IMG/VR virus record: IMGVR_UViG_3300034200_001454
Location: 1-64,000 of that record
Strand: one strand, 5' to 3'
DNA length: 64,000 bases
From: a virus
This document shows positions 9,607-48,413 of this stretch, in pieces; the stretch's first letter is position 1; each line of letters opens with the position of its first letter. Made by a program: the position numbers and the translations under genes. The notes beneath the pieces were generated by a model. The model made no database searches and was not told the DNA's origin. It saw only the letters and a program-made list of their open reading frames with translations.

Positions 9607-10270
9607 TCTCTCTCATTTTTCTGAAGCCATTGTTCGTTTTGACGAATCATCCTGGCGTTATGACCCTATTAGTGGTCGGTATCGCGGCGCTAACGGACGT
9701 TTTCTCAGCGCTCGCGCAGTGGAAGCACTGGTGGATGGTCGAATTAATAAGCTTGGCGCTGAGCTACGGCGTTTTACACGTATGCTTAGCGCTGGTGATA
9801 TTACGCTGGACCAATGGCAAGGAAGCGTGAGGGAAGCGCTTAAGCTTGTCCACGTACAGGCAGCAATCATCGGCAATGGTGGACGAGAAACCATGCGGGC
9901 AAACGATTGGGGACGCATCGGGCAGCGTCTCCGTGTGGAATATGCTTACTTACAGGGCTTTGCTCGCGATCTTTTGGATGGCCGCGTTTCTAGTGCCATG
10001 GCTCTTGCTCGTATCGGGCTGTATGCTCAGAGCGTGCGCGCAAATTACTGGGAAGGAGTTGCGATTCGGACCGAAAAGCAAGGATATAGCTTGATGCGCC
10101 GCATTCTTGACTCTCAAGCAAAACACTGTCAAAGCTGCCTTGATTACGCTGCTCGTGGTGTTGTGGCAATTGGTAGCGTCCCGCTCCCTGGTCAACGCTG
10201 CGAATGCAGAGCAAATTGCAGGTGTAGCGTTAAATACTTTCGCCAGCAAGCACCGTCTATAATTGTGTGA
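9590..10270 (+). CDS. head morphogenesis / MuF-like minor head protein
   Basis: follows the portal; YR...GRFLS, HCQSC and C-terminal PLPGQRCECRANCRC. Confidence 0.75.
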   Translation: MSSLNDLSHFSEAIVRFDESSWRYDPISGRYRGANGRFLSARAVEALVDGRINKLGAELRRFTRMLSAGDITLDQWQGSVREALKLVHVQAAIIGNGGRETMRANDWGRIGQRLRVEYAYLQGFARDLLDGRVSSAMALARIGLYAQSVRANYWEGVAIRTEKQGYSLMRRILDSQAKHCQSCLDYAARGVVAIGSVPLPGQRCECRANCRCSVKYFRQQAPSIIV

Positions 10271-10321
10271 ACCGGCGAGTGCCACCTCCCGGTTCTCGAC
10301 CAACTCACTGGAGATGAGCTG

Positions 10322-10861
10322 ATGACTAAGTATAGGCAATTGCCGTCAATGGAGCGATTGGCGGAAGTGTTCAGAGTCGATGAAGACGGTCGTCTTTACT
10401 GGAAAGCCAAGCCGAATCCAAGTGTTAACGTTTCACGGATTAGCATCGGCCAGCAAATTACAACAACAAATAGCCAAGGATATTTAACTGTTGGCCTTGA
10501 TGGTGGCACATATCGCGTGCATCGCATTGTTTGGGCATTGATTCACAACGAAGATCCGGGGCAGTTTCAAGTAGACCACATTAATGGAGACAGAACTGAC
10601 AATCGTCCTTCAAACTTGCGTTTATGTGACAACGGCCAAAATCAGCTTAATTCAAAAATGCGTATAACCAATACCAGCGGGATCCGAGGAGTCCATCTAG
10701 TCATGTCTCCAAAAGACAGGCCATGGGCTGCATCCTACAGAAGTAAACATTTAGGCTATTTTGCGACAAAAGAAGATGCCGCAAAGGCAGTCATGGATGC
10801 CGTGGGACTATGCGACAACAAGGATTTTTATCAGACACAAGCGTTAGAAATGGTTGATTGA
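10322..10861 (+). CDS. HNH homing endonuclease with AP2-like C-terminal domain
   Basis: RVHRIVW, VDHINGDRTDNRPSNLR, NTSGIRGV, HLGYFATKEDAA. Confidence 0.92.
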   Translation: MTKYRQLPSMERLAEVFRVDEDGRLYWKAKPNPSVNVSRISIGQQITTTNSQGYLTVGLDGGTYRVHRIVWALIHNEDPGQFQVDHINGDRTDNRPSNLRLCDNGQNQLNSKMRITNTSGIRGVHLVMSPKDRPWAASYRSKHLGYFATKEDAAKAVMDAVGLCDNKDFYQTQALEMVD

Positions 10862-10862
10862 A

Positions 10863-11585
10863 ATGGACGTTTTAGTGGGAAGCACTGGCCTTATTGGACA
10901 AGTGTTGCGCGAGGCGCATGGATTTGGCGCCTGCTTCCATTCCAAAAACATTCACGAGGCTCCACTGCTTAAGGAGCCCATTGAAAGGCTGTACTTGGCT
11001 TGCATGCCAGCGGAGAAATGGAAAGCAAACGCAGCGCCGCTGGATGATTTCAACAATATGAACAGCATCATTCAAAACATCCGACATCTCCCAAGCCCAG
11101 CGGAAGTCATTGTTTATTCAACGATTGACGTGCATGGACAAACTGCCTATTATTCAGGCCGCACGCCTGAGATTTTTGCTATTGATTACGGCACTAATCG
11201 CTATATCTTTGAAATGCTTATAAAGGCGACATTCCATGATTCAGTGGTGACAATCATCCGCCTTCCTGCATTGTTTCATCGCCTTATTAAAAAGAATATT
11301 CTGTTTGACCTATTAACGAACAACAACGTGGAGAAGATTAATATCAATTCTGCTTATCAATGGTATTGCTTGGATGATTTATGGAAGGACACAAAAAAGG
11401 CAATCAGTGGTACTACTAATCAATTTTTCCCTGCTCCCATTGAAACCGCTGAAATTATTCGGCGCTTCTTCCCCGAAGCAAATGTAAGCACTGGTCCTCG
11501 TATTGAATACAACATCGGACCACATACGACAACAAGGCATGAGACGATGAAGAAGCTGGAGGCTTTTATCAATGCTTGGAATTAG
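10863..11585 (+). CDS. NAD-dependent epimerase/dehydratase-like protein
   Basis: VLVGSTGLIG Rossmann motif, STIDV, YGTNRY, IIRLPALF. Confidence 0.78.
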   Translation: MDVLVGSTGLIGQVLREAHGFGACFHSKNIHEAPLLKEPIERLYLACMPAEKWKANAAPLDDFNNMNSIIQNIRHLPSPAEVIVYSTIDVHGQTAYYSGRTPEIFAIDYGTNRYIFEMLIKATFHDSVVTIIRLPALFHRLIKKNILFDLLTNNNVEKININSAYQWYCLDDLWKDTKKAISGTTNQFFPAPIETAEIIRRFFPEANVSTGPRIEYNIGPHTTTRHETMKKLEAFINAWN

Positions 11586-12312
11586 TGCTATCGGCTGGAA
11601 GGATGAGGAAGAGGAGCAAATCTTAAGCGCAAATGCTGGGGCGTTTAACGTGCTAGAAATTATTCCTGCACGCATCTTCGCTCAAAACAAAGACTACGCC
11701 GATATCGCGAAAGAATATCGCGAAAGCTATGGGATATGGGCCTATTCGGCGCAGGCTTTATTCTTTCAAAGTAACGTGCAAAGCTTTGAAGACACTGCGG
11801 CAGTGTCTGAGCATTTATTGAAAGTGATCAGCCTTGGCTCCCTCATGGGAATCAAGCGTTTCGTGCTGGGAAGCCCCAGCTTGAGAAAGGGAAGTCCTTC
11901 CTGCTTGATGAACGTCTTGAAGCGTATGGATGCAGTATTGGACGCGAATGGAGCCATTCTTTGCATCGAGCCTGTAGCAAAATGCTACGGAGGGTCCTAT
12001 TTCTTTACAGTTAACGAGATTGTCAATCACATTGATTTCTTTAATCTCAAGAATGTTAAGACAATGCTTGATACTAATAATGCTTGGCTTCAAGGCGATA
12101 GTCCTAAAAAGCTACTGAATCATTATTGGCCGTACATTGCTCATGTGCATATTAGCGACACAGACAATGGACCACTGCTAAATAAATACGAACACAAACA
12201 AATTAAGAGAATGCTTGATGGCATTAACTATGAGGGCGCGATTGTGCGCGAGCTATTCCAGGCTAAAAAGAATATGCGTGACTATCCGCTATTCCGCAGT
12301 ATCTACGCTTGA
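11572..12312 (+). CDS. sugar-phosphate isomerase/epimerase (xylose-isomerase-like TIM barrel)
   Basis: ISAIGW, VLGSP, LCIEP...YG, MLDT and HVHISD metal motifs. Confidence 0.8.
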   Translation: MLGISAIGWKDEEEEQILSANAGAFNVLEIIPARIFAQNKDYADIAKEYRESYGIWAYSAQALFFQSNVQSFEDTAAVSEHLLKVISLGSLMGIKRFVLGSPSLRKGSPSCLMNVLKRMDAVLDANGAILCIEPVAKCYGGSYFFTVNEIVNHIDFFNLKNVKTMLDTNNAWLQGDSPKKLLNHYWPYIAHVHISDTDNGPLLNKYEHKQIKRMLDGINYEGAIVRELFQAKKNMRDYPLFRSIYA

Positions 12313-13280
12313 GACATGGCTTCTTTTGCCATCTCTTCGATGGCATAGATGCCTTGAATTTTGCCAGTGTAAAAAGACAGCAGATTATCCTGTTGCCTAA
12401 AAATGGGAGTGCGTTGAGCGCTAGCATTCTTGCATTTTGCTTTAATTGATACCACGGGAAATGCATATTTAAAATAGTCGTAAAAATCGGGCCAATAGCG
12501 CATCACGTGACCTTCAATTAAGTGGCGTCCATAATTCATTTGACCATAGTTTTTATCAAAGCAATTCATTTCTTTTTGCTCAATAATGCCAAGCTTCACG
12601 TGGCTTAACGAGAACATTGAAGATCCGTACGGATAGATAGAAAACAGTTCCCCATCAATAAAAGTTAGAGCGCCAAATGGGGGCGTTTTGATGGGACGAT
12701 AAACAAACATTGCCACTGCTTCAAAATAGTCTCCATTAAGAATTGGTAACAAGGAATTGTTTGTGCAATCAATGACGAAATCATAATCTCGCTTCAACAA
12801 GGTAAGCGATTTTTCATTGATTTTTTCCTTCCTCACGATGGGAGCCAGTAGTTCGCCAAAATACTTACCAGTGGCAGTTGGAGAAATATATTTTTCAATG
12901 GTATGCAGAAGCAGCGAAGAATAATTAAGAAAACTTGCATCGGCCTCCGCGTGTGGCCAATCTTTAAAAATAAGGCGAATCGTTTCTGCGTCCAACAAGC
13001 TTTCGTCTTCTGACACCGCATAGAAATTATTCTGCACGTTTTCCGTTAGATGGCCATAGTCCATCATGAACTGTTCAAACGTATTCCTGCACAACATGCG
13101 CGTGGCATGGTTCCTGGCATAGTGATAGCCATAGTGCAATCGGTTCTGATTGATTAATGATGCTTCGGAGATGAGCATTTCATTGCGCTCAAACAAAGTC
13201 ACATCGGCTTCGTTCATCAAGCGTGAAGCTAAATGGCACCCCGTCCAGCCACCACCAACAATTGCAATCTTGAGCGCCAT
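12303..13280 (-). CDS. FAD-dependent oxidoreductase
   Basis: IAIVGGGWTG, NQNRLHYGYHYAR, TGKI. Confidence 0.85.
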   Translation of the reverse strand: MALKIAIVGGGWTGCHLASRLMNEADVTLFERNEMLISEASLINQNRLHYGYHYARNHATRMLCRNTFEQFMMDYGHLTENVQNNFYAVSEDESLLDAETIRLIFKDWPHAEADASFLNYSSLLLHTIEKYISPTATGKYFGELLAPIVRKEKINEKSLTLLKRDYDFVIDCTNNSLLPILNGDYFEAVAMFVYRPIKTPPFGALTFIDGELFSIYPYGSSMFSLSHVKLGIIEQKEMNCFDKNYGQMNYGRHLIEGHVMRYWPDFYDYFKYAFPVVSIKAKCKNASAQRTPIFRQQDNLLSFYTGKIQGIYAIEEMAKEAMSQA

Positions 13281-13969
13281 TAAATATCAATGCAAAGTGT
13301 TGGCTGAACTCCCTGCCAATTTGACTTGGCCTTAAACAGGTCCAACTGTGGGAAGTATTCTACGCGGCGAGGCGTGCCGGTTCCATACACATCAGCATGC
13401 CCTTGATAGTTCCATTCATCAGCGCCATGCTTATCGGGGTGGTAAAGGCCAGTTGGCGAGTCCTGCAGCTTCCAGAGCATGTAGTCCTCGTTAGGCACTC
13501 CCCATTGCTTCCATGCTTGCAATGCCTGTGGCGAGCTGTCCATGTTTTTAATCGCCGTGAGGCGGTCTTTGTGGCGCATGAGATAGTCCATGCTGTAAAG
13601 GCCGATGCTCATTGATGGCGTGTGCTTCATTGCCACCTTTTCAAAAGCTTCTGGCGGCTCGTAGACGAGGCTTTTAAATGCTGGTCCCGCAATGCATGTG
13701 TCATGAAGCAGGAACCAAAACGGGCTTGTGAGATTGTGTTCGACAATTTCAATGAGGGGCGTATATTCAAATGAATTCTGAGGGGTGCAAATCATTGGCA
13801 CATCTCCATAGTGATCAATGCGCCAATTTTCTTGTCCACCATTGACAATCAAAATTTCGTTGGTGCCAATCCCAGCGCGAGTTAGGGAAGGGATGATTGT
13901 TTTAAGCGTATGGGCGGCGAACTTGTTACAGGTGCTAATGCAAAAACGCACAGAAGATGGTGGCAGCAT
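13280..13969 (-). CDS. GT-A fold glycosyltransferase-like protein
   Basis: ILIVNGG, NSFEYT, WFLLHDTC, NED; glycan-gene context. Confidence 0.6.
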   Translation of the reverse strand: MLPPSSVRFCISTCNKFAAHTLKTIIPSLTRAGIGTNEILIVNGGQENWRIDHYGDVPMICTPQNSFEYTPLIEIVEHNLTSPFWFLLHDTCIAGPAFKSLVYEPPEAFEKVAMKHTPSMSIGLYSMDYLMRHKDRLTAIKNMDSSPQALQAWKQWGVPNEDYMLWKLQDSPTGLYHPDKHGADEWNYQGHADVYGTGTPRRVEYFPQLDLFKAKSNWQGVQPTLCIDI

Positions 13970-14031
13970 GATTTTCCCCGTGTGCCGTCAGTATAGAAGC
14001 TGTTTATGATGACGAAGATTTATAGGCAGTT

Positions 14032-15255
14032 ATGGCACGTATTCTTTACTGCGGCGACGCGGCGGTGCAAACGGGGTTTGGGAGGGTAGCCGAATACTTG
14101 ATTCCGGCATTGTCGAGAGAGCACGAAGTTCATGTGATGGCAACAAACTGGCACGGAGACTCTTGTGATATGCAGCAGTATTGCAAGATGTATCCAGCCA
14201 TGGCGCATGGCCAGGATCCGTTTGGTTCTCATCGTATTTCGTCCGTTATTCAAGCCGTCAAGCCTGATCTGGTGTGGGTGACAAACGATATTTGGATTGC
14301 TATCAATTTATGGCAGCAGGCGAAGCCGCTCAAGGAGAAGATGGGCTTCAAATGGTTTGTCTACACTCCCATTGATTCTTACGGTCTATTTCCTGAGCTG
14401 AAAGCTCAAATGGAAGATTGGGACGGTCTTGCCACTTATACGCAATTCGCCGAAAAAGAACTGCGCTTGATGGGCTACGACAAGCCTATTGATATTATTG
14501 GCCATGGCACTGACTTCGAGAAATTCTTTCCGCTCGACAAACAACAATGCAGGAAAGAGCTTGGCGTGCCAGAAGACGTATTTATTGTCTTTAATGGCAA
14601 TAGGAATCAGCCACGAAAGCGTATTGACCTCACGCTCAAAGCATTTATCAAATTTGCCAAAGACAAAGACGATGCGCGTCTGTGGCTAAATATGGGCAGC
14701 AAAGACCTGGGATGGGAAGTCATTCCCTTGTTTAAGCGCATTGCTCGCGACGAAGGTTTCGATGCAACAAGCAAGCTTATCTTGACAAGCCCCCATTTCT
14801 CCGTAGACAATTGCCTCACTATTGAACAGCTCAACAAGGTGTATAACGCTGCTGACATTGGCATCAACACTTGCATTGGTGAAGGGTGGGGCCTAGTCAA
14901 TAGCGAGCATGGTTCCGTTGGTGTGGCGCAAGTTGTGCCTGACCATACGAGCTTGGCTGAGATCTTCGATGAGGTGCCTCGTATTCAATGCAATGCTTCC
15001 GAGACTGACCGCAATTATGGTCTTGAGCGTCTGCTTCCTGATCCCGAGAGTGCTGCAGAAATCTTGTCGTATTACTACGAAAACCGCAATGCCCTAAAGA
15101 AAGATGGGCAATGGTGTTACAAGCGTCTGCGCGAAGAACCGTTCACTTGGTCTTATATTCAGCAGCAGCTTCTTGACGTGGTGGAACGCACTCTTAATGT
15201 AAAACCGCCCGCTCCTGAATTTAAAGGTTTTGGCACTCCCGCAAAAATTGTTTGA
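14032..15255 (+). CDS. GT4 family glycosyltransferase
   Basis: TGFGRV, IGHGTD, NRNQPRKRID, YNAAD, GEGWGL..SE. Confidence 0.92.
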   Translation: MARILYCGDAAVQTGFGRVAEYLIPALSREHEVHVMATNWHGDSCDMQQYCKMYPAMAHGQDPFGSHRISSVIQAVKPDLVWVTNDIWIAINLWQQAKPLKEKMGFKWFVYTPIDSYGLFPELKAQMEDWDGLATYTQFAEKELRLMGYDKPIDIIGHGTDFEKFFPLDKQQCRKELGVPEDVFIVFNGNRNQPRKRIDLTLKAFIKFAKDKDDARLWLNMGSKDLGWEVIPLFKRIARDEGFDATSKLILTSPHFSVDNCLTIEQLNKVYNAADIGINTCIGEGWGLVNSEHGSVGVAQVVPDHTSLAEIFDEVPRIQCNASETDRNYGLERLLPDPESAAEILSYYYENRNALKKDGQWCYKRLREEPFTWSYIQQQLLDVVERTLNVKPPAPEFKGFGTPAKIV

Positions 15256-15257
15256 TC

Positions 15258-15974
15258 ATGCACGTCTCTCAAATCTTTCTGTCCAGTGATCCATCGGAAG
15301 AGCTTAGTCCTTTTCTGAAACATGCCACTGGCACCATTGATGCCTGCTTTCCAGATGCAAAGCATAAGATTTATAGCAACGAGGAACTACGTTCTTTCAT
15401 CGCTGATAACTATGGAGAAGAAGTGGTCTGGGCATATGACACGCTTAAGCCTTTTTCTTACAAAGCGGATCTCGGTCGATTCTGTTTGCTGAACAAGCTT
15501 GGTGGCTGGTACTTTGATATTGGCGTGAGGGCTTTTAATGCCGTGGATCTTGGACCACGAATTAAATTCTTGGCATTTCGTGATATTCAGCGCTTCAGTT
15601 ATACAAGCTGGGCATGTGCTACGACAGTGCTTTATTCCCAGCCAGATAACTCTGCATTGCAAACCGCAATTGAAATGATCGTAGCAAATTGCATTGAACA
15701 ATACTATGGCATCACTCCATTGTGCCCCACTGGTCCCACGCTGCTTGGGAAAGCTTTGGCAGCAAATGGCAGTCAAGCCGATTTTATCTATGGCGACTAC
15801 CTTGAGCTAACGCCTACACACGGCCAAAAGAATAGGGCCTTTGTGCTCCCCGATGGCACGATCATGGCGTGGAGTAAGCCTGCTGGCGGTGGCGACTTGA
15901 CTGGGCTTGGCGCCAAGGGCGTCAACAATTACAATGAGCTGTGGCAAGCCCGTAAGGTGTATGGAGATGGCTGA
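15258..15974 (+). CDS. GT32 (OCH1-like) glycosyltransferase
   Basis: YKADLGRFCLL..LGGWYFDI and PTGPTLLG. Confidence 0.85.
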   Translation: MHVSQIFLSSDPSEELSPFLKHATGTIDACFPDAKHKIYSNEELRSFIADNYGEEVVWAYDTLKPFSYKADLGRFCLLNKLGGWYFDIGVRAFNAVDLGPRIKFLAFRDIQRFSYTSWACATTVLYSQPDNSALQTAIEMIVANCIEQYYGITPLCPTGPTLLGKALAANGSQADFIYGDYLELTPTHGQKNRAFVLPDGTIMAWSKPAGGGDLTGLGAKGVNNYNELWQARKVYGDG

Positions 15975-16677: not shown

Positions 16678-16695
16678 TTGCGCTCAAGTTTAATC

Positions 16696-16968: not shown

Positions 16969-16994
16969 GGGGTGATGCCGAAAGCTTTGCCCCT
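16938..16994 (+). promoter_or_regulatory. programmed -1 ribosomal frameshift signal
   Basis: GGAGG 16938-16942; in-frame A_AAA_AAG 16956-16962; hairpin AGGGGTGA/TTGCCCCT 16968-16994. Confidence 0.8.
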
Positions 16995-17623: not shown

Positions 17624-17660
17624 TTATTTGTTTTCCTGATAAATGCCTGTTATCAAGAAT

Positions 17661-17939: not shown

Positions 17940-18004
17940 AAGAATTTATTCCGTTTTGCATAAGCTCATAAAGTATAACATTTGCTTCTTGATAAAGTAT
18001 GAAT

Positions 18005-19198: not shown

Positions 19199-19200
19199 TT

Positions 19201-19761: not shown

Positions 19762-19776
19762 TAGGAGGCCCTAACA

Positions 19777-40500: not shown

Positions 40501-42581
40501 CCATCGCTGATATTCGCACAACGCTTGGCCTTGGTACTCTTGCCACTCAGAACGGGAGCTTCTCTGGTACTTCCACTGGTACCAACACTGGCGATCAAAC
40601 AATCACGCTTTCTGGGGATGTCACTGGTACAGGTACTGGAGCATTTGCTGCCACCATTGCCAATAGTGCTGTAACCACAGCCAAGATTCTTGATAGCGCT
40701 ATTACTACTGCCAAAATTGCGGATAGTGGCGTAACAGCCGTAAAATTAGCGGACAATTCTGCTGCCGTAGTAGCTGGTTCTTCACCAATTGGCAATGGAT
40801 CTTTCATTGGTCAACAATGGTTTAATACCAGCGATGGTTATGAATACACCTGGACTGGGAGCGTGTGGCAGCGTCAAACAGGGCTCGTAACAACTGTCGT
40901 TTCTGGAGACACTGTTTATAGCTTTACTACGTCCTATCCTGATTCGTTCAGCGCTTCCATTGTTCCTTCTCTAAATACGCAAGTAGCTTCTCGGTTCTTT
41001 GCTGGTCCCGCAAGCGGAAATAGTGATGCCGCGCCTACATTCCGCGCCATTTCTGCAAGCGATCTTCCTAAGGCAACAACTAGCGCTCTTGGCGTGGCTC
41101 AAGCTGGCACTGGTTTAGTCACTGTCAGTGGCATCTTCAATCATGCCAATAGCGTAGCCTCTGGCATTTATTACAAAGTTACTGTTGACGAACAAGGGCA
41201 CATTAGCGCAGGTGAAACTGCTTTAGTAGCCGACGATATTCCAGAATTATCTGCCTCGAAGATTACCACTGGTACATTTGGCAGTGGTCTCATTGGAGAC
41301 GATGCGGTTCGGGCATCTAGCTTGGCAAACTACAGCGTTAGCCAGTTTGGTGAAGCATTGCCATCTGCAGATTTTATTGGACAATTCTTCTTCAATCCAT
41401 TGGAGAAAGATCTCTATCTATGGGATGGAAACGTTTGGAACCCCGTTGGCATTTCAGTTGGTGAAATTATTTTTGGCGGCACTTACAATGCAAGTGGCAA
41501 TATTATTGCTAGCACAAGTAGCGATGGCGCCGCTGTTGGCTTGTCAATTGGTCAGCCGCTTCCTTCTCCCTCTGCTACGTTTAATCGTTATTACGTGGTG
41601 GTGGAAAGTGGAGGCACTGGCGTGGCTCCTGCTCCTGCCACTACTTTGCAGCCGCCTGATATTCTGCTTTGCAATGGCACTGCATGGACTGAAGTGGATG
41701 TTAGCTCCACTTATACGGCACAAGCTGCAGTTAACGTTGCCTTTACGCCCGCTGCCAATATAGGCAGCACTAATGTTCAGGCTGCATTAGAAGAAGTTAG
41801 CGCTGAATGTCGCAATGCTAGTAATGTTGCAAGTGGCATTTTGGCCGTTGCTTACGGTGGTACTGGCACTGGCACTTATACAAAAGGCGACATTCTTGTT
41901 GCAAGTGGTACCACATTAGTCAAGCAGGCAATTGGCACTAACGGGCAAGTATTGACGGCTAATTCGGCCTTCGGGCCAGGCGTTCATTGGACTACTCCTG
42001 CCAGTGGTACTGTGTTGTCAGTGAGCGTCAATTCTCCACTCACTGTTGTCAGCGGCTCAACTACTCCTGTTATTTCTATCCCCGATGCATCAACCAGCGT
42101 AAGGGGAAGCGTTCAGCTCACTGATAGCACGAGCACAACTAGCTCTTCTCTTGCTGCTACTGCCACTGCAGTGAAGAGTGCTTATGACCTTGCTAATGCT
42201 GCTCTTCCTCGTACTGGTGGCACCATTACTGGTGAAGTGGTTATCGGCAATACTGGCACGCTGTTGTTTGAAGGCGCCACTGACAATGCTTTTGAAATCC
42301 AACTCACTGCTGCCGATGCCACTTCTGACAAAGTGGTGACACTGCCAGATACCACTGGCACTGTCATTACCACTGGAGACACTGGTACTGTTACCAACAC
42401 GATGCTTGCTGGCAGCATTGCTGACACCAAGCTTTCTACGATTTCCACTGCAGGAAAGGTTAGCAACAGCGCCACCACCGCCACCAGTGCAAACACTGCA
42501 AGCGCAATTGTTGCCCGTGACAGTAGTGGTAATTTCTCCGCTGGCACCATTGATGCCACCATTGATGAAGGAACTTTCTAA
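37575..42581 (+). CDS. long repetitive tail fibre protein
   Basis: MADQRITEL N-terminus, 10/20-aa repeats, phage fibre repeat GSVQLTDST...AATATAVKSAYD. Confidence 0.85.
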   Translation: MADQRITELVELPQGGVSSNDVLPIADVSASQTKKVQVKSLIQAGFNLADASTLDISKINQASVAKLGAAAIGTNVLTYDKIQQVSATDRLLGRSSAGAGNIEEIICTSFARSLLDDADATTVRSTLSLGAVATGDTINTSLIEDLAITTGKINNNAVTTAKIADANITTAKIASGAIDSAQLAASGVVQGKLAANSVITVNIVDSGITQAKLAADAVGTVNIIGSGITQSKLAADAVNTVNIIDSAVTLAKMASGSIGTAQLIASGITQEKLAADAVATINIIASGITQSKLAANAVATVNVIDSGITQAKLASGSVDTVNIINSAVTLAKMASGSVDTAQLVASGITQSKLAANAVDTVNVVDSGITQQKLAANAVATINIADSGITQAKLGTSSVDTINIIDSAVTLAKMASGSVNTAQLIASGITQEKLAADAVATINIVDSGITQAKLAANAVATINIISSGVTQEKLASNAVATVNIVDSGVTQSKLAANSIAAINIVDSGITQAKLGSGAVATVNIIDSAVTLAKMASNSVDTAQLVASGITQEKLAANAVATINITDSGITQEKLAANAVNTVNVVDSGITQAKLSSNAVNTINVVDSGITQAKLAANAVATINLVDSGVTTAKIASGAITIGKLSLSSGELTGSVITASSIPSGSYVSGSIVTTDIADNAVTFAKIQQVASGVLLGRASAGSGNVETITLTEAGRALLDDADATAQRTTLGLGSMAIQAASGVLITGGTAVLSSGTIAYATINGGVISGITDLAIADGGTGASTASGARTNLGLAVGTDVQAYDAALASIAGLTTASGQIIYTTASDTYATATITAAGRAILDDADASAQRTTLGLGSLSVKNTVGSGDYDSSSIVTANIADSAITTAKIADSGITTIKIADANVTQAKLASDSVSTIKIVNSGVTTAKLADNAVSYAKIQETTTSDVILGRSSASGGTVEEIACTSAARSILDDASIADIRTTLGLGTLATQNGSFSGTSTGTNTGDQTITLSGDVTGTGTGAFAATIANSAVTTAKILDSAITTAKIADSGVTAVKLADNSAAVVAGSSPIGNGSFIGQQWFNTSDGYEYTWTGSVWQRQTGLVTTVVSGDTVYSFTTSYPDSFSASIVPSLNTQVASRFFAGPASGNSDAAPTFRAISASDLPKATTSALGVAQAGTGLVTVSGIFNHANSVASGIYYKVTVDEQGHISAGETALVADDIPELSASKITTGTFGSGLIGDDAVRASSLANYSVSQFGEALPSADFIGQFFFNPLEKDLYLWDGNVWNPVGISVGEIIFGGTYNASGNIIASTSSDGAAVGLSIGQPLPSPSATFNRYYVVVESGGTGVAPAPATTLQPPDILLCNGTAWTEVDVSSTYTAQAAVNVAFTPAANIGSTNVQAALEEVSAECRNASNVASGILAVAYGGTGTGTYTKGDILVASGTTLVKQAIGTNGQVLTANSAFGPGVHWTTPASGTVLSVSVNSPLTVVSGSTTPVISIPDASTSVRGSVQLTDSTSTTSSSLAATATAVKSAYDLANAALPRTGGTITGEVVIGNTGTLLFEGATDNAFEIQLTAADATSDKVVTLPDTTGTVITTGDTGTVTNTMLAGSIADTKLSTISTAGKVSNSATTATSANTASAIVARDSSGNFSAGTIDATIDEGTF
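38020..39500 (+). repeat. degenerate 60-bp (20-aa) tandem coding repeat with 80- and 120-aa super-repeats
   Basis: units like VDSGITQAKLAANAVATINI; the variant SAVTLAKMASxSxxTAQL recurs at 80, 80 and 120 aa; boundaries approximate. Confidence 0.9.
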
Positions 42582-42653
42582 TCAATGACAAATAAAGCCT
42601 TTTAGAATTGCGAAAGACTTATTAGTCTTCTGTAATTCCGAAAGGCTTTAATC

Positions 42654-44090
42654 ATGGCTGGTGTTCTTCAGCATCTGCGTTCATCGACGCTTAATAAGCG
42701 TCCTAATCCTGCTTCTATGGTTGATGGTCAAGTGGCCATTAACTATGCAAGTGGCGCTCCCGGCATGTTCTTCAAGGACAGCAATGGAAGCTTGGTAAAA
42801 GTGGGGCCTGTGCATGTGGGTAGCGGTGCTCCTAATGCCGTACCTGCGAGTGGTGGCACTGCCGGTAATTCCTTGGGAGAGCAATGGCTTGATACCAGTG
42901 GTGGCACTTACGTGTTTAAGATTTGGGACGGCAGTGCATGGCGTAGTGAAGCTGGTGAATTTGTAAACGTCACTGGCGATACGATGACTGGCGCATTGGG
43001 AATTATCGCAGGCAGCGCTGGGTCTCCATCGCTTTTTATAAGCGGGGACGCAAATACTGGACTGTATTCCCCCGGCGCGGACCAAGTAGCCATCTCGACT
43101 AATGGCACGGGGCGGATAACCGTTCAATCTGACGGAAACGTACTTATTGGCGCAACTGGATTAGCAAATAGGCTTTTAACCGTTAATCAAACAGGAATAA
43201 CTGGCGGGGAATATGGCATCAGTATATCACAAACAAGTGCAACTAGTAATGCACTTGAACTAACTATCGACTCGGCGAATGCACTCTCAAAGCTTTTTCA
43301 AAAAAGCACTATCCCGCTCGTTTTTGGAACTAATGATACCGAGCGGATGCGCCTGGACTCAAATGGCCGCTTAGGTCTGGGGACTAGTAGCCCTGGACAT
43401 GCTTTTGATTGCGTTGCAAGTAGCGCTGGTGTTGTCGCGGCAAGGTTCAGGGGAAATTCTAGTGGAAACAATAATACCCAAATTCGTTTCTATGGAGCCA
43501 ATACCGCAACGGACCAATGGGCGGTTGGTAATGCCGTTGCCACGGATGATGCTACCAGAAACTTTGATATTTATGATCTTGTATCCAATGTAAATAGACT
43601 CAGGATTGATTCCTCAGGCCGCGTAGGGATTGGCACTACTAATCCTAGGTTTGCTGTATCCATTGGATCAACAGCAGGAGCGGGGGTTGTAAACCCAGAT
43701 ACATTAGATCTTGGTGGCACTTACTCAAGCGTGGCCGGAGCTAATGCAAAGCTCCGTGTGTATTGGGACGGGACTGATACTTTTGGTTTTGGTGTGTCGC
43801 CTGGCCAGCTTGAGTACACAGTGCCTTCGTCCTCGTCCCATGTTTTTTACCAAGGTGCAACGCAATCAGCGAAAATCGACAGCTCCGGCAGGTTGTTAGT
43901 TGGCACGTCCTCGCAGTCTGGCGGATCACTCTTACAAGTAAACGACAATCGCATCAGAATTGCGACAGCAAAAACACCGGCATCGGCTACCGATACTGGC
44001 GTAGCTGGCGAGATATGCTGGGATGCTAATTACGTCTATGTCTGCACTGCTACGAACACATGGAAGCGCTCAGCAATCAGCACATGGTGA
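42654..44090 (+). CDS. tail fibre / receptor-binding protein
   Basis: HLRSST..KRP, repeated R.RIDSSGR.GIGT units, GEICWDANYVYVCTATNTWKR end. Confidence 0.85.
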   Translation: MAGVLQHLRSSTLNKRPNPASMVDGQVAINYASGAPGMFFKDSNGSLVKVGPVHVGSGAPNAVPASGGTAGNSLGEQWLDTSGGTYVFKIWDGSAWRSEAGEFVNVTGDTMTGALGIIAGSAGSPSLFISGDANTGLYSPGADQVAISTNGTGRITVQSDGNVLIGATGLANRLLTVNQTGITGGEYGISISQTSATSNALELTIDSANALSKLFQKSTIPLVFGTNDTERMRLDSNGRLGLGTSSPGHAFDCVASSAGVVAARFRGNSSGNNNTQIRFYGANTATDQWAVGNAVATDDATRNFDIYDLVSNVNRLRIDSSGRVGIGTTNPRFAVSIGSTAGAGVVNPDTLDLGGTYSSVAGANAKLRVYWDGTDTFGFGVSPGQLEYTVPSSSSHVFYQGATQSAKIDSSGRLLVGTSSQSGGSLLQVNDNRIRIATAKTPASATDTGVAGEICWDANYVYVCTATNTWKRSAISTW

Positions 44091-44566
44091 TGACGTGTCC
44101 CGCGCTGCGTCAGTGCAACATCTGCAAGGAGCACAAACCGCAGACTGACTTCTACAAAGTCAAGCGGGCAAAGAAGGACATTCTTGGTGTGCCTCGTATT
44201 TCACGCTGCCGTCAGTGCGAGATACAGAAGTACATGGAGCTGGATCCACGGCAGAAGATGGTCTACGCGGCTCGCAATCGGGCTCGCATCGCCGGACTGG
44301 ACTGCACCATCACAAAGGACGACATTGAGATTCCCGAAACCTGTCCGGTGTTGGGCATCCCACTGTTCGCTCGTGTTGGCGCTGGCAGATCAAACCGCGA
44401 TCAAGTGGAGAACTCCCCGAGCCTGGATCGGATCGACAACAGCAAGGGGTATGTGCCCGGCAACATTGCAGTCATCTCGATGCGAGCAAACATGATCAAG
44501 AACAACGCCACGCTTGCTGAACTGAAGGCCATCGTGGCCTACATAGAAGCCAGCCAGAGCCAGTAA
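44090..44566 (+). CDS. His-Me finger (HNH-like) endonuclease
   Basis: CNICKEHKP..DFY, CRQC, CPVLGIPL, SPSLDRIDNSKGYVPGN...AN..K; TGATG overlap with the fibre gene. Confidence 0.8.
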   Translation: MTCPALRQCNICKEHKPQTDFYKVKRAKKDILGVPRISRCRQCEIQKYMELDPRQKMVYAARNRARIAGLDCTITKDDIEIPETCPVLGIPLFARVGAGRSNRDQVENSPSLDRIDNSKGYVPGNIAVISMRANMIKNNATLAELKAIVAYIEASQSQ

Positions 44567-44651
44567 ACCTACTCTCTACTGCCGATCAAGCGTATAGTGG
44601 TGGGGCAGCGAGTTTGCACCTCCTGCCCCTGGCCACAGTTCTCTAGAAACC

Positions 44652-45167
44652 ATGACCCAAGAAGATTACTCCAAAGTGCCACCGCCGCACCTGCTCAAAA
44701 AGTTCTCCGAGCAAGCACGAGAGGACAGCCAGAAGCGGGGCCATGCGGGCTACTGCAAGACCTTCGCCAAGCTCTGCATCGACTGGGCGCTGAACTCCAA
44801 ATCATCTCCTAATAATCTCCAAATTAGGAGTTCCGATCTGGACGTAACGATTGCATTGGTGCAGCAGTGGACTGATGAGATCTACGGCGGTCCCGGTGCA
44901 GTTGTCGGTAGTGACGACATTTGCTTAGCCAAGCTGGCTGCTCAGTACGGCGCCGATCAGGAGCTGGAGGCGTGCTGTGAGTGGCTGAAAGCCAAGCACT
45001 GGATTGAGCCTGAATTTGTTGATGAACTCCGCGCCGCCCGCCGTCCGAAACCCGCAACACTGAAGGAGCAATCCCTGAAGCACTTAGAGGTGATGGAGCG
45101 GGACGGGCATTACCTGCCTGAAATCCTGCAAGATCTTCGTCGTGCAGTAGAGCAGCTCGATGACTAA
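44652..45167 (+). CDS. hypothetical phage protein
   Basis: AAQYGADQELEACC...LRAARRPKP motif. Confidence 0.75.
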   Translation: MTQEDYSKVPPPHLLKKFSEQAREDSQKRGHAGYCKTFAKLCIDWALNSKSSPNNLQIRSSDLDVTIALVQQWTDEIYGGPGAVVGSDDICLAKLAAQYGADQELEACCEWLKAKHWIEPEFVDELRAARRPKPATLKEQSLKHLEVMERDGHYLPEILQDLRRAVEQLDD

Positions 45168-45306
45168 GTGGTTTTCTGTTCGCAAGGCAGACTTCGACAA
45201 AACTTTGTTTTTCGGCGTTGGTATCGGCGGCGACTTGCCAGAGACCACGCTTGCGCTTTTCTTTGTTATTGGCGAACACGTCATTTGCATTGGTCCCCAC
45301 AAGTAG
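45160..45306 (+). CDS. small hypothetical protein (48 aa, absent from the ORF track)
   Basis: MTKWFSVRKADFDKTLFFGVGIGGDLPETTLALFFVIGEHVICIGPHK; start overlaps the previous gene end. Confidence 0.6.
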   Translation: MTKWFSVRKADFDKTLFFGVGIGGDLPETTLALFFVIGEHVICIGPHK

Positions 45307-45320
45307 TCATTACCACTTCT

Positions 45321-45602
45321 ATGTCTGAGCTTTCACTTGCTGCGCAGGCGGTGCTGGATGCTGCTTTCCCCGTCTACGACGAAGAGGAACACCTTTACGT
45401 CGCCACTGGCGAACAACATGCAGGCATGATTGCCGCCGCCGCCCTGCGAGCGGCTGCGGATCAGGTGGTGCCACTTGCCGATGTCGCACCCCAAGAAGAC
45501 CTTGAAAGTCGAAGGGAGGCAATGGCCTGGGGGATGCAACACCAGACACAGCTCACTCGCTACCAACTCCTCGCCATCGCTGATGAGCTTGAAGCCCAGT
45601 AG
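45321..45602 (+). CDS. hypothetical phage protein
   Basis: MSELSLAAQAVLDA...AAALRAAADQVVP...LLAIADELEAQ. Confidence 0.78.
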   Translation: MSELSLAAQAVLDAAFPVYDEEEHLYVATGEQHAGMIAAAALRAAADQVVPLADVAPQEDLESRREAMAWGMQHQTQLTRYQLLAIADELEAQ

Positions 45603-45616
45603 TCACCTTCGTTTCT

Positions 45617-45895
45617 ATGTCTGAATACAAGATGAACTTAATTGCAACATTTAAAGTCCCCGTTACTGTCTCTTTAAGCATTGAACAACAGAAAGAAGCG
45701 CGACAAGCTGTTAATTGCTTTTATCTTGGAGATCCAGAATGTAATGTTTTGAACCCAGAAACAATGCAGTATGAAGCTAAGTATCCACAAAAAGAAACGT
45801 CTGAATTCAAGAAAGCCTGTCGCAATATTGCTCAGGACGCAACAGAATACTTAACTATTGGTCTTGACTCATCTGGCCGGCTTTCCATCCTGTAA
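45617..45895 (+). CDS. hypothetical protein
   Basis: 92-aa ORF. Confidence 0.65.
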   Translation: MSEYKMNLIATFKVPVTVSLSIEQQKEARQAVNCFYLGDPECNVLNPETMQYEAKYPQKETSEFKKACRNIAQDATEYLTIGLDSSGRLSIL

Positions 45896-45966
45896 GGCGC
45901 CCGCAATTCCCGCACCTTGATCTGCCTTTGCATCGTCTAAACTAACAAAGACCATTCTTTTTAACC

Positions 45967-46281
45967 ATGGCAATCACTTACCAATGGGGCGTTGCAAATC
46001 TGGAACGCCACCTTGCTGATGGAATCGTCTACACGGTTCACTATACAATTTCGGCTGATGATGGCACGTATGCTAGTTCGGCGTATGGCAGTCTTGGCCT
46101 TGAAGCGCCTGACGCAGATGATGAAATTCCCTATGCCCAACTCACGCCTGAAATCGTCACTGGCTGGGTGAAGGAAAAGTTTGGCGCTGAAAAAGTAGCA
46201 GAAATCGAAGCGGCATTGGCCGAACAGATTTCTCAACAGCGCACTCCCACTACAGGCAACGGCCTGCCCTGGAATAGCTAA
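45967..46281 (+). CDS. tail-fibre-associated small protein
   Basis: W.VANLER...DG.VYTVHY, IPYAQLT.E.V.GWVK, GLPW end. Confidence 0.72.
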   Translation: MAITYQWGVANLERHLADGIVYTVHYTISADDGTYASSAYGSLGLEAPDADDEIPYAQLTPEIVTGWVKEKFGAEKVAEIEAALAEQISQQRTPTTGNGLPWNS

Positions 46282-46304
46282 GCTTTTGTTTTCATCGTCT
46301 TTCC

Positions 46305-46442
46305 ATGGCGGCAAAAAGCAAAATCGGCATCAGCGGGCAAAAGCTGTTCACGCCTGGTAAACCTAAAACTACAAGGCAGGGTAACGGCAAAAACAGTAAG
46401 GCCAGTCACGGGCGCAAGCTCCGCAAAGGACAAGGCAAATAA
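46305..46442 (+). CDS. small highly basic protein (45 aa, absent from the ORF track)
   Basis: MAAKSKIGISGQKLFTPGKPKTTRQGNGKNSKASHGRKLRKGQGK; own -10 box and terminator. Confidence 0.75.
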   Translation: MAAKSKIGISGQKLFTPGKPKTTRQGNGKNSKASHGRKLRKGQGK

Positions 46443-46444
46443 AC

Positions 46445-46470
46445 AAGGGGCCGAAAGGCCCTTTCTTTTT
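46445..46470 (+). terminator. intrinsic terminator
   Basis: GGGCC-GAAA-GGCCC-TTTCTTTTT. Confidence 0.85.
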
Positions 46471-46501
46471 GCGCTTACAATACAAGAAAGACAAGATTAT
46501 C

Positions 46502-47725
46502 ATGGGCCAAATTATTGCCGGTGGCGAGCAGTTTGAAACTCATATTGAAGCAGATTATCGGGGAAAGATTTTACAAAAAGGACCAGATAGTGGAGCCGTA
46601 GATGCTTTTGGAAGACAGCGGACAAGTGCTCCTTATACGCTTTTTGATAGCACAATGCGCTATGACAAGCGTCCTGATCAATGGTTTGACAGTATTGTTG
46701 GCAGTGGCACTTCCACTTTTTTAACGCATCAAAGCAGTGTGGCAATGAGTACCACCACTGCGTCGGGAGACACGGTTCTTCGTCGTACTAAGCAGAACTT
46801 TCCGTATCAGGCGGGTAAAAGCATGATGCTTTTGCAAAGTTTTGTTGGCGCTCCGCTTGCTTCTGGACTCATTCAAGAAGTGGGAATTTTCAATGACCAG
46901 AATGGTGTGATGCTACGCGCTAGTGGTACTACGGTGCAATTTGTTGTTAGAAGCTATGCATCTGGCACAGTCAATGAAGACGTAGTGAATCAAAGCGATT
47001 GGAATATTGACACGCTTTCTTCACTTAACTTTGCTAAAGCACAAATCTTTACTGCTGATTTGGAATGGCTTGGCGTGGGGCGCGTTAGGTGTGGTTTTGT
47101 TATTGACGGGGAAATAGTTTATTGCCACGAGTTTGAGCATTTCAACGCATTGGATAGCGTCTATATGACAACTGCTATTTTGCCATTGTCCTATCGCATT
47201 CATAATGCTTCCGCTCAAGCGTCTTCGGCGACAATGAAGCATGTGTGTTGCAGCCTGCTAAGCGAAGGCGGCTACGAGCCAGATGGTGCCATTTATTCAG
47301 TGTCGCATAGTCTTTCAACAGTACCCAACACTTCTGGCGAGCGCATCACTGCTGGCATTCGTATGGCCAGTGGTCGCACTGGTAATGTCATTCTTCCCGT
47401 CAGGATTTCTACGACCACTGCTTCTAGCGATGTAGTGCTGTGGCGATTACGGTTGAATCCTACGCTTTCTGGCGTTACTTGGAGCGCAGCCAGCAATGGT
47501 AGGGGCAATGTAGAAGTGACGACAAGCGGCACTGCTACGGGAGGCACTGTAATTGATTCTGGTTTTGTCAGTCAGGGCAGCGCTAATAACTATGCAGTGG
47601 CAGAAGCCATTCGCTTAGCGCTGGGGCAAAATGCCTCTGGCGTTAGCGACACGTTGATTCTTACCGTGGACACTGACGTGAACGCTAAAGCTTTAGGCAT
47701 GATTGGCTGGGTGGAAGTGGTTTGA
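46502..47725 (+). CDS. probable virion structural protein (beta-rich)
   Basis: DAFGRQRTSAPYTLFD, YQAGKS, DLEWLGVGRVRCGF, LPLSY.I. Confidence 0.7.
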   Translation: MGQIIAGGEQFETHIEADYRGKILQKGPDSGAVDAFGRQRTSAPYTLFDSTMRYDKRPDQWFDSIVGSGTSTFLTHQSSVAMSTTTASGDTVLRRTKQNFPYQAGKSMMLLQSFVGAPLASGLIQEVGIFNDQNGVMLRASGTTVQFVVRSYASGTVNEDVVNQSDWNIDTLSSLNFAKAQIFTADLEWLGVGRVRCGFVIDGEIVYCHEFEHFNALDSVYMTTAILPLSYRIHNASAQASSATMKHVCCSLLSEGGYEPDGAIYSVSHSLSTVPNTSGERITAGIRMASGRTGNVILPVRISTTTASSDVVLWRLRLNPTLSGVTWSAASNGRGNVEVTTSGTATGGTVIDSGFVSQGSANNYAVAEAIRLALGQNASGVSDTLILTVDTDVNAKALGMIGWVEVV

Positions 47726-47758
47726 TCAGCTAAGCTAAGAACTCTTGTCTTTCCTTCC

Positions 47759-47962
47759 ATGGACGGCTTTAAAGACCAGTGGTACAAGCAACAAGTGGAT
47801 CACATCTCTGAGGCTCTTCAAGAGCTGCTTACGGACGACGATCCTGCCGTTGCCATCAAGGGACTAAGCGAAGCTATTAGCGAGTGGGAAACCTACCACG
47901 AGAAGGAACTGGCTAAATGGAAGCGCCTTAGGGCGCTTCTGAGCTGGGAAGCTGGTACGTAA
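47759..47962 (+). CDS. hypothetical protein
   Basis: 67 aa, own -10 box. Confidence 0.6.
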   Translation: MDGFKDQWYKQQVDHISEALQELLTDDDPAVAIKGLSEAISEWETYHEKELAKWKRLRALLSWEAGT

Positions 47963-48332
47963 TTCGCAGTTCTCCTCCTAGCGCCTTTACAGCCTCGCTA
48001 GCATCCGCTGGCGGGGCTGTTTCAATGAGGACAGACGGAACGATGGCATCAGGAAGAGGCGTCACCTTTGCTTCGGGGTAGAGGGAGCGAGCTTTCTCCG
48101 CTAATGCATTTGCTTTTGTTTCTTTTTCTTCTTTCTCCCATTGTTTCACCAATACTGCTACCTGCCCGTCTATTTTCTCCATTACGATTTTAGTTTTCCA
48201 TTCTGCCCAGTCTTGACGACAATGCGCCATGAGCAGTTTGAACCATGAATTAAAAGCAAGAGAGGGCCATCGTGAGGCGGCCCAAAGTCCTGCTTCGTAG
48301 CAAAGTGCATTAAACCAGCTTTCGCGGCTCAT
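47928..48332 (-). CDS. hypothetical protein downstream of the lysin
   Basis: MSRESWFNALCYEAG...; start chosen at the internal ATG. Confidence 0.6.
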   Translation of the reverse strand: MSRESWFNALCYEAGLWAASRWPSLAFNSWFKLLMAHCRQDWAEWKTKIVMEKIDGQVAVLVKQWEKEEKETKANALAEKARSLYPEAKVTPLPDAIVPSVLIETAPPADASEAVKALGGELRITYQLPSSEAP

Positions 48333-48413
48333 ATTTCGTTGATCATCGCCTAAGATGAAAGGGCAGCGGAACTGCAATTCCCTGCCCACGGACACCTAAA
48401 GGAGGTAGGCATC

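What the first reader, a model, noticed from the sequence alone, without database searches (positions are those of the whole stretch)
10258..48413. A covarying bulged-C leader hairpin occurs three times, each between a -10 box and an apparently inserted gene
Seen: (1) TATAAT 10258, then GAACCGG-C-GAG-TGCCAC-CTC-CCGGTTC-TCGACCA (10269-10302) before the HNH at 10322. (2) TATAGT 44593, then GGGGCAG-C-GAG-TTTGCAC-CTC-CTGCCCC-TGGCCAC (44602-44636) before the accessory cluster at 44652. (3) TAAGAT 48351, then GGGCAG-C-GGAA-CTGCAA-TTCC-CTGCCC-ACGGACAC (48361-48395) before the HNH at 48414. All share a 6-7 bp stem, a single 5' bulged C, a 3-4 bp stem and a TGC(C/A)-containing loop, with different but fully compensatory stem sequences. 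Inference: a cis-regulatory RNA motif at the transcript 5' end, such as a protein-binding site that times expression of toxic nucleases or a portable expression module.
Basis: partly seen in the sequence, partly recalled or inferred. Interest (0 to 1): 0.75.

Follow-up and report, generated by a model that had tools for sequence, protein, structure and literature searches.

The report
Antisense RNA cassette heading phage nucleases
The three hairpins are real, but each is half of a portable 77-base control cassette in front of selfish nuclease genes and small accessory genes of cyanobacterial viruses, and it most likely makes a small, so far undescribed antisense RNA that holds those genes in check.

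Summary
All three hairpins exist as described. A fourth lies at 76570 of the same 77-kb phage genome, outside the window. The phage is a relative of Synechococcus siphovirus S-CBS4. About 50 distinct copies from uncultured phage contigs, plus one in the cultured podovirus S-CBP1, show strong covariation.

The conserved block is about 77 bp and is bounded by two -10-like hexamers that face each other. One lies 3-6 nt left of the hairpin. The other lies on the opposite strand inside codons 2-6 of the downstream gene.

Three results point to the opposite strand as the one that folds:
- All ~10 independent internal mismatches in the hairpin are A·C on the gene strand, which are G·U on the other strand.
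- A second hairpin (29% G·U) exists only on the opposite strand.
- That second hairpin starts 7 nt after the antisense hexamer in 35 of 36 representatives.

The best reading is a ~60-nt two-hairpin cis-antisense RNA covering the ribosome site and start codon, as in IS10 RNA-OUT/RNA-IN. No transcript has been seen. There is no Rfam match.

Earlier notes of this scan describe analogous cassettes on other phage DNA.

The parts
10258..10263 (+). Copy 1: sense -10-like hexamer TATAAT
   Evidence: Read. TAnnnT sits at a fixed offset in 44-49 of 48 distinct copies.
10269..10295 (-).
   Evidence: dG -14.1 on the + strand and -15.6 on the - strand.
10300..10322 (-). Copy 1: hairpin 1 of the predicted antisense RNA. 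Its loop is complementary to the SD GGAG, and its 5' end is at the start codon.
   Evidence: Fold of window:10262-10322:-, z -3.31. Folds again.
10329..10334 (-). Copy 1: antisense -10-like hexamer TATACT inside codons 3-5 of the HNH gene
10322..10861 (+). HNH_3 homing-endonuclease-type gene
   Evidence: Pfam PF13392, E 6e-14. Absent at this site in S-CBS4.
44593..44598 (+). Copy 2: sense -10-like hexamer TATAGT
   Evidence: Conservation in 62 contexts starts here.
44602..44629 (-). Copy 2: bulged hairpin, hairpin 2 of the predicted antisense RNA
44632..44656 (-). Copy 2: hairpin 1 of the predicted antisense RNA. It pairs the complement of the start codon with the conserved GUGGCC box.
   Evidence: Fold z -2.94, MFE frequency 0.55. 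The sense version has dG 0.
44663..44668 (-). Copy 2: antisense -10-like hexamer TAATCT, formed by the last base of codon 4, codon 5 and the first two bases of codon 6
   Evidence: Codon 6 is TAC and the third base of codon 4 is A almost without exception (one GAC exception, L207); codon 5 is free. Conservation stops here in 62 contexts.
44652..45167 (+). Accessory gene (phrog_32006, function unknown)
   Evidence: The same cassette precedes at least 6 protein clusters.
48351..48356 (+). Copy 3: sense -10-like hexamer TAAGAT
   Evidence: Kept (TAAGAT, TAAAGT, TACAAT) in at least 6 different left contexts.
48361..48387 (-). Copy 3: bulged hairpin, hairpin 2 of the predicted antisense RNA, followed on the minus strand by a U-rich stretch
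48391..48413 (-). Copy 3: hairpin 1 of the predicted antisense RNA. Its loop CCUCCUU is complementary to the SD AAGGAGG.
   Evidence: Fold z -3.70, MFE frequency 0.69.
48420..48425 (-). Copy 3: antisense -10-like hexamer TATCAT (codons 3-4; codon 4 is always ATA)
48414..48941 (+). NUMOD4 + HNH_3 homing-endonuclease-type gene, inserted between the endolysin gene and the gp062-like gene, both on the minus strand
   Evidence: In S-CBS4, gp062 and the endolysin gene are adjacent.

Best explanation
Each hairpin is part of a portable ~77-bp regulatory cassette made of two promoters that face each other.

The left -10 box drives the mRNA of the downstream gene, which is an HNH homing-endonuclease-type gene or a small accessory gene. 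A second -10 box lies on the opposite strand inside codons 2-6 of that gene. It would drive a ~60-nt antisense RNA that starts at the start codon and folds into two hairpins.
- Hairpin 1 carries the complement of the ribosome-binding site in its loop.

This RNA is fully complementary to the first ~50 nt of the mRNA. By pairing with it, it would block ribosome binding and/or trigger decay, and so throttle these selfish or possibly toxic genes. Collisions between the convergent polymerases may add to the effect.

Shown here: the conserved anatomy, the covariation and the strand of folding. Inferred: that both promoters fire, where the antisense RNA ends, and that it represses.
For: 1. Bounds of the cassette. 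In 62 non-redundant contexts of the copy-2 type, conservation starts at the sense TAnnnT and stops exactly at codon 6. Only hexamer positions 1, 2 and 6 are fixed on either side. Codon 6 is TAC and the third base of codon 4 is A (one exception, GAC in L207), while codon 5 codes D, E, P, A, W or S.
2. Position of the antisense hexamer. It lies 30-35 nt from the hairpin in 45 of 48 distinct copies and is almost absent elsewhere. Its distance to the ATG varies.
3. Strand of hairpin 2. All ~10 independent internal non-Watson-Crick pairs are A·C or C·A on the sense strand, and there is no real G·T. The minus strand is more stable in 23 of 29 variants, Wilcoxon p 5e-4, though the variants are related. 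Helix 2 is 93% paired on the minus strand against 88% on the plus strand.
4. Whole-RNA fold. The predicted minus-strand RNA folds into the same two hairpins in all four genomic copies, z -2.9 to -4.6. Sense RNAs from the predicted start give z +0.2 to -1.1.
5. Hairpin 1. In 36 of 36 representatives, hairpin 1 (31 distinct sequences, 29% G·U) has mean dG -8.6 against -2.3 on the sense strand. It begins at the 7th base after the hexamer in 35 of 36.
6. Two-helix model. Covariation is 0.415 against 0.194 in shuffles (0 of 500 reach it) and at most 0.172 for slid partners. The model finds exactly 4 sites in this genome and sites in 28 of 51 related records.
7. Precedent. IS10 RNA-OUT is a 69-nt antisense RNA from a facing promoter. 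It covers the translation start of the transposase mRNA and reaches into the sense promoter (PMC5006887).
Against: - No transcript, transcription start or RNA end has been observed. The only RNA-library data are unstranded contigs.
- The promoters are -10 boxes only. The two-hexamer consensus scan finds nothing.
- Only the copy-3 type has a U-rich tract after hairpin 2 on the minus strand, so termination of the antisense RNA is unexplained.
- The A·C excess could in principle reflect a strand-biased G-to-A mutation pressure.
- In copy-3 contexts the minus-strand transcript would run on into the neighbouring leftward gene, so there it could be an mRNA leader.
- The alignment of hairpin 1 across subtypes is imperfect: 65% of cells are paired in the model alignment.
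- Three copies lack the antisense hexamer: L168, L268 and S-CBP1.
Confidence: 0.55

Rival explanations
1. Sense-strand leader. The hairpin sits at the extreme 5' end of the mRNA. It either protects the mRNA from 5'-end-dependent RNases (RNase E/J) or binds a phage or host protein that times expression.
For: - The hairpin lies 3-6 nt after a well-conserved -10 box and always has the orientation of the downstream gene.
- A hairpin truncated at the predicted start still folds, dG about -7 to -10.
- The bulge and the TGCA-like loop are conserved beyond what pairing needs.
- A sense role can coexist with the antisense RNA.
Against: - The outermost pairs covary although they lie only 4-6 nt from the -10 box, so the usual spacing would leave them untranscribed.
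- All internal mismatches are A·C on this strand, and there is no G·U.
- This reading does not explain the conserved tail, the conserved synonymous positions in codons 4-6, or hairpin 1.
- Sense RNAs fold no better than shuffles.
Confidence: 0.17
2. Outward-facing promoter plus insulator. The cassette's second promoter exists to re-start transcription of backbone genes interrupted by the insertion. The hairpins are merely 5'-UTR or terminator elements of that leftward transcript, and it does not regulate the cassette's own gene.
For: - In nearly all copy-3 contexts, a minus-strand gene starts 20-30 nt left of the cassette.
- Here the HNH gene splits a minus-strand lysis operon that is intact in S-CBS4.
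- The copy-3 type has a U-rich tract after hairpin 2.
Against: In copies 1, 2 and 4 and in most copy-2-type contexts, the left neighbours are plus-strand genes or terminators. There is then nothing to drive. The same two-hairpin RNA is kept there.
Confidence: 0.12
3. DNA-level element. The hairpin would be a cruciform or single-strand recombination site, like PeSL stem-loops or integron attC sites, at which gene cassettes are swapped.
For: One identical ~77-bp block joins at least 8 left contexts to at least 20 different coding continuations, so the joints lie at its edges. An extrahelical base is kept on one strand, as in attC.
Against: - Hairpin 1 has 29% G·U pairs and exists on one strand only.
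- The block is bounded by two promoter-like hexamers with the typical T-A-n-n-n-T conservation.
- No recombinase co-occurs.
- Homologous recombination within any conserved block would give the same joints.
Confidence: 0.08

Closest known systems
IS10/Tn10 RNA-OUT / RNA-IN cis-antisense control of transposase
   Same: - Two facing promoters a few tens of bp apart.
- A ~60-70-nt antisense RNA whose 5' part is complementary to the ribosome site and start codon of a selfish element's nuclease-type gene.
- A stable imperfect stem-loop.
- An antisense RNA that reaches into the sense promoter (PMC5006887).
   Different: - No sequence or Rfam relationship.
- Two hairpins instead of one.
- The antisense promoter lies inside the first codons.
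- The targets are homing-endonuclease-type and accessory genes of phages.
- The cassette is itself a shuffled module.
- Nothing is shown experimentally.
Phage P22 sar RNA / ant, and other phage cis-antisense RNAs such as lambda OOP
   Same: A small phage-encoded antisense RNA from a promoter facing the target's promoter, covering the target's translation start.
   Different: Those are single-locus regulators of lysis-lysogeny genes. This one is a multi-copy portable module present in several phage lineages.
PeSL (promoter-early stem-loop) mobile regulatory cassettes of T4-type phages (PMC2839356, PMC4122927)
   Same: Short conserved promoter-plus-stem-loop modules that flank variable, often orphan genes. 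Their copies mark recombination joints.
   Different: In PeSLs the stem-loop is a terminator for upstream transcription, and the promoter has -35, -10 and an AT-rich element. Here the hairpin is downstream of a -10-only promoter, a second facing promoter exists, and the fold fits the opposite strand.
T4-family translational masks of homing endonuclease genes (I-TevI, mobE of Aeh1; from my own knowledge and earlier scan notes)
   Same: RNA-level restraint of free-standing homing endonuclease genes that carry their own promoter.
   Different: Those masks sequester the ribosome site in a sense-strand hairpin. Here the sense RNA around the ribosome site is essentially unstructured, mean dG -2.3.

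Membership tests
IS10-type cis-antisense control (by mechanism) | Convergent promoters with overlapping 5' transcript ends | tested here: inconclusive
   Two inverted TAnnnT hexamers about 63 bp apart are conserved in 45-49 of 48 copies with a promoter-like conservation pattern. No start site has been mapped.
IS10-type cis-antisense control (by mechanism) | A small antisense RNA complementary to the ribosome site and start codon | tested here: met
   By geometry. The predicted RNA starts at the start codon, and the loop of hairpin 1 is the complement of the SD. This depends on the predicted start.
IS10-type cis-antisense control (by mechanism) | A conserved stem-loop with a bulge or mismatches in the antisense RNA | tested here: met
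   Two covarying hairpins, G·U only on the minus strand, and an invariant bulge.
IS10-type cis-antisense control (by mechanism) | The antisense RNA is detectable and represses the target | not testable with these tools
   Only unstranded contigs of RNA libraries were available.
Any Rfam family, including RNA-OUT (by homology) | A match to a curated covariance model | tested here: not met
   No match at the sites on either strand at gathering score or at E up to 5 on three 3-kb stretches.
PeSL cassettes | The stem-loop acts as a terminator upstream of a full sigma-70 promoter | tested here: not met
   The hairpin is downstream of the -10 box, there is no conserved -35, and there is no T-tract on the sense strand.
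PeSL cassettes | Copies flank variable genes and mark recombination joints | tested here: met
   One cassette precedes at least 6 protein clusters and follows at least 8 left contexts.
T4-type translational mask | A sense-strand hairpin sequesters the ribosome site | tested here: not met
   The sense version of the ribosome-site region folds at mean dG -2.3 and z about 0.
Intrinsic terminator | A GC-rich hairpin directly followed by a U-tract | tested here: inconclusive
   None on the sense strand. On the minus strand only the copy-3 type has a U-rich tail.
Type I toxin-antitoxin | A small toxic peptide gene controlled by an antisense RNA | tested here: not met
   The targets are 150-190-aa HNH_3 proteins, an RHH protein and assorted small ORFs of unknown function.

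The most novel reading that the evidence does not exclude
A previously undescribed family of portable antisense-RNA governor cassettes travels with homing endonuclease genes and other accessory genes across unrelated cyanophage lineages (siphoviruses, T7-like podoviruses, a 125-kb phage). Identical cassettes head different genes in different phages. The small RNA could therefore act in trans, so that one phage's copy silences the cassette genes of a co-infecting phage. That would be a copy-number-sensing or inter-phage competition device, analogous to multicopy inhibition in IS10.
Probability: 0.3. Interest if true: 0.8.

Novelty: new variant of a known kind. Interest (0 to 1): 0.65.

Why it matters
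How free-standing homing endonuclease genes are kept harmless to their phage is known mainly from T4-type sense-strand masks. A compact promoter / antisense-RNA module would be a second, general solution. It moves with such genes and with accessory genes, and it is conserved with rich covariation in hundreds of uncultured cyanophage contigs.

It would also explain three other observations:
- why unrelated proteins share the start MT(Q/N)EDY: those codons carry a promoter on the other strand;
- why mosaic joints fall where they do;
- why the tail motif next to the hairpin is conserved.

The 61-position model gives annotators a way to find the cassette. The cultured phage S-CBP1, which grows on Synechococcus sp. 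CB0101, carries one copy, though without the antisense hexamer, so the idea can be tested directly.

Tried and rejected
- **First models.** A model built from three copies missed the fourth genomic copy, and MAFFT misaligned short hairpins. I replaced it with a descriptor scan and models R2 and R3.
- **Rfam.** No match at the hairpin sites at either threshold.
- **Consensus scans.** Two-hexamer promoter and terminator scans were uninformative.
- **Host element or CRISPR-repeat mimic.** Rejected. One hit in 185,579 prokaryote genomes, on a 4-kb MAG contig that looks like phage DNA.
- **All HNH genes carry it.** Rejected. The HNH_3 gene at 71279-72013 has only a canonical terminator upstream.
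- **S-CBS4 and three other cultured cyanophages.** No copy. blastn of the copy-2 and copy-3 leaders against 50,697 phage records found nothing.
- **Relatives of the copy-1 HNH protein in IMG/VR.** None found.
- **RNA evidence.** Three runs hold small parts of the region, but only as unstranded contigs of relatives. They show no starts, ends or strand. One contig begins at 44605, the predicted sense start, but that is not evidence.
- **tRNA-minihelix, 16S-helix-45 mimic, pseudoknot between loop and tail.** Considered by eye and dropped, because the resemblances were not consistent across variants.
- **RNAalifold on a MAFFT alignment.** It recovered only hairpin 2, because hairpin 1 is out of register between subtypes.
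- I stopped typing and recomputed the same comparison from the stored loci.
Full report
**What the window is**

The window is bases 1-64000 of a 77,476-bp IMG/VR virus record rated 100% complete. Its nearest cultured relative is Synechococcus siphovirus S-CBS4, with patchy DNA identity of 69-74%.

**Checking the observation**

Each hairpin folds as described, dG -14.1 to -16.5 kcal/mol.
- A generic stem / one-base bulge / stem descriptor is not rare: about 37 hits in the window.
- The specific motif is rare. A model built from the three copies finds only those three at E below 0.001.
- A stricter descriptor, and a second model that includes the flanks, reveal a fourth copy at 76570-76598. It lies outside the window, in front of another HNH_3+AP2 gene.
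- The genome has four HNH_3 genes. Three carry the motif. The one at 71279-72013 does not and has only an ordinary terminator upstream.
- The downstream genes are HNH_3 (10322-10861), NUMOD4+HNH_3 (48414-48941) and a phrog_32006 gene of unknown function (44652-45167). An endonuclease-VII-like gene precedes copy 2.
- S-CBS4 has no HNH gene at the sites of copies 1 and 3, and its gp062 and endolysin genes are adjacent. "Inserted" is therefore justified for those two.

**Relatives**

- Homologues of the copy-3 HNH protein in IMG/VR, down to 41% identity, keep the -10 box, hairpin, tail and ribosome site. They do so in at least six unrelated left contexts and show compensatory stem changes.
- The copy-2 leader is nearly identical in many contigs, but it is joined to at least 8 left contexts and at least 20 different coding continuations. 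These fall into at least 6 protein clusters.
- Scans of 50 whole related records find 1-2 copies in 28 of them. These include 42-47-kb genomes with terminal repeats, ~70-kb genomes and one of 125 kb.
- The cultured podovirus S-CBP1 has one copy in front of an unannotated RHH_5 ORF.
- Other downstream genes are HNH_3+AP2, NUMOD4+HNH_3 and assorted small ORFs.
- The motif is absent from Rfam. It is essentially absent from 185,579 prokaryote genomes: the single hit is a 4-kb MAG contig.
- Covariation on 47 distinct copies is strong. Ten of 11 pairs change on both sides, and the score is 0.465 against 0.145 in shuffles (0 of 500 reach it) and at most 0.16 for slid partners.

**Why the sense-leader reading falls short**

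Three observations do not fit it.

1. *Transcribed or not.* In most copies the hairpin starts only 3 nt after the -10 hexamer, and pairs at 4-6 nt from it covary. With the usual 7-nt distance from hexamer to start, these bases would not be in the mRNA. That spacing is established knowledge, not something measured here.
2. *Kind of mismatch.* Every internal non-Watson-Crick pair in the hairpin is A·C or C·A on the gene strand. There are about ten independent cases: the L206 type, L015, L079/L132, L095/L168, L192, L268, L231, L284, L285 and S-CBP1. There is no real G·T. The three G·T cells in the model alignment come from rows that are shifted by one. On the other strand these mismatches are G·U wobbles.
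3. *Where conservation ends.* In 62 non-redundant contexts of the copy-2 type, conservation begins at the sense hexamer and ends exactly at codon 6. Codon 6 is TAC (one exception, GAC in L207), the third base of codon 4 is always A, and codon 5 is free (D, E, P, A, W, S). Read on the minus strand this is TAnnnT, with the same fixed-1-2-6 pattern as the sense hexamer.

Across 48 distinct copies of all subtypes, such a minus-strand hexamer lies 30-35 nt from the hairpin in 45. It is almost absent elsewhere, and its distance to the ATG varies from +4 to +12. By independent N-terminal class, about 11 of 13 have it.

**The predicted antisense RNA**

I took the 7th base after the minus-strand hexamer as the start.

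- *The four genomic copies.* The minus-strand RNA of all four folds into the same two hairpins, z -2.9 to -4.6 and MFE frequency 0.30-0.69. Sense RNAs from the predicted sense start give z +0.2 to -1.1.
- *Representatives of all subtypes.* Nearly all of the 44 folded sequences give the same architecture.
- *Hairpin 1.* It has 31 distinct sequences among 36 representatives, 7-11 bp, and 29% G·U pairs. Mean dG is -8.6 kcal/mol, against -2.3 for the same DNA read on the sense strand. The minus strand is the more stable in 36 of 36. The first paired base is the predicted start in 35 of 36.
On the minus strand the tail reads GUGGYC and pairs with the complement of the start-codon region. The loop carries the complement of the Shine-Dalgarno sequence: CCUCCUU in copy 3 and CUCCA in copy 1.
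It is more stable on the minus strand in 23 of 29 variants, and it is 93% paired there.
- *The two-helix model.* It scores 0.415 in covariation against 0.194 in shuffles (0 of 500 reach it) and at most 0.172 for slid partners. Hairpin 1 is only 65% paired in that alignment, because the subtypes differ in register. The model finds exactly four sites in this genome.

**Mechanism proposed**

The unit is a ~77-bp cassette with two -10-only promoters that face each other. Promoters with only a -10 box are common in cyanobacteria; that statement rests on my own knowledge. The predicted starts are about 50 nt apart.

The antisense RNA would be complementary to the whole 5' UTR and start codon of the mRNA. 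It would act like IS10 RNA-OUT on RNA-IN, by blocking ribosome binding (PMC5006887). Interference between the convergent polymerases may contribute.

- Shown here: anatomy, covariation, strand preference.
- Inferred: that both promoters are active, where the RNA ends, and that it represses.
- Weak points: there is no U-tract after hairpin 2 except in the copy-3 type. In copy-3 contexts the minus-strand transcript would continue into the neighbouring leftward gene. Three copies lack the antisense hexamer. A strand-biased mutation pressure could mimic part of the A·C signal, but not hairpin 1.

**Comparison with known systems**

| System | Agreement | Difference |
|---|---|---|
| IS10 RNA-OUT/RNA-IN; P22 sar/ant | Works like them | No homology |
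| PeSL cassettes of T4-type phages | Portable, and marks recombination joints | Different layout: in PeSL the stem-loop is an upstream terminator and the promoter is a full sigma-70 promoter |
| T4-type translational mask | RNA-level restraint of homing endonuclease genes | The sense ribosome-site region is unstructured |

Literature searches found no description of an antisense RNA heading phage homing endonuclease genes.

Earlier AI notes of this scan report analogous antisense cassettes before homing endonuclease genes in other phages. I reached my reading before seeing them (note), and they are not independent evidence.

**Verdict**

The most likely reading is a new family of portable cis-antisense control cassettes, which is a new variant of a known kind. 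It still needs transcript mapping.

Noticed in passing
window 4897-4953 (-) and 4968-5052 (-); 3437-3506 (+): A Glutamine-II riboswitch aptamer (Rfam RF01704, 42.7 bits) lies directly beside a tRNA-Leu(taa) gene on the minus strand. A tRNA-Met(cat) gene lies nearby.
   Followed up: no
genome 76559-76635 (L242:12559-12635), outside the window: A fourth copy of the cassette precedes an HNH_3+AP2 gene (76624-77202). The ORF list starts that gene too far upstream, at a TTG.
   Followed up: yes
genome 71228-71252 and 71279-72013, outside the window: The only HNH_3 gene without the cassette is preceded by a canonical GC-hairpin plus T-tract terminator.
   Followed up: partly
L278:836-1027 (-) = S-CBP1 NC_025456.1, about 45635-45826, minus strand: An unannotated 63-aa ribbon-helix-helix ORF (Pfam RHH_5, E 2.6e-9) lies on the strand opposite to the annotated genes nearby (thymidylate synthase and gp051) and is headed by a cassette copy.
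   Followed up: partly
window 61656-61720 (+): Two consecutive hairpins followed by T-rich sequence lie after ORF 60900-61646. This looks like a terminator. It is not a member of the family, having no bulge and no -10 box.
   Followed up: partly
copy-2-type loci, e.g. L144, L150, L188: The cassette is often placed directly after an intrinsic terminator (GC hairpin plus T-run within about 12 nt of the sense -10 box). This gives a terminator-promoter-gene layout typical of phage morons, meaning accessory genes with their own promoter and terminator.
   Followed up: no
L186:6566-6592, L118:1195-1221: In two variants a swap of the bulged C and its neighbour (GCGG to GGCG) re-registers the helices to 7+3 bp, so that a single bulged C is kept. 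This suggests selection for the bulge itself.
   Followed up: no
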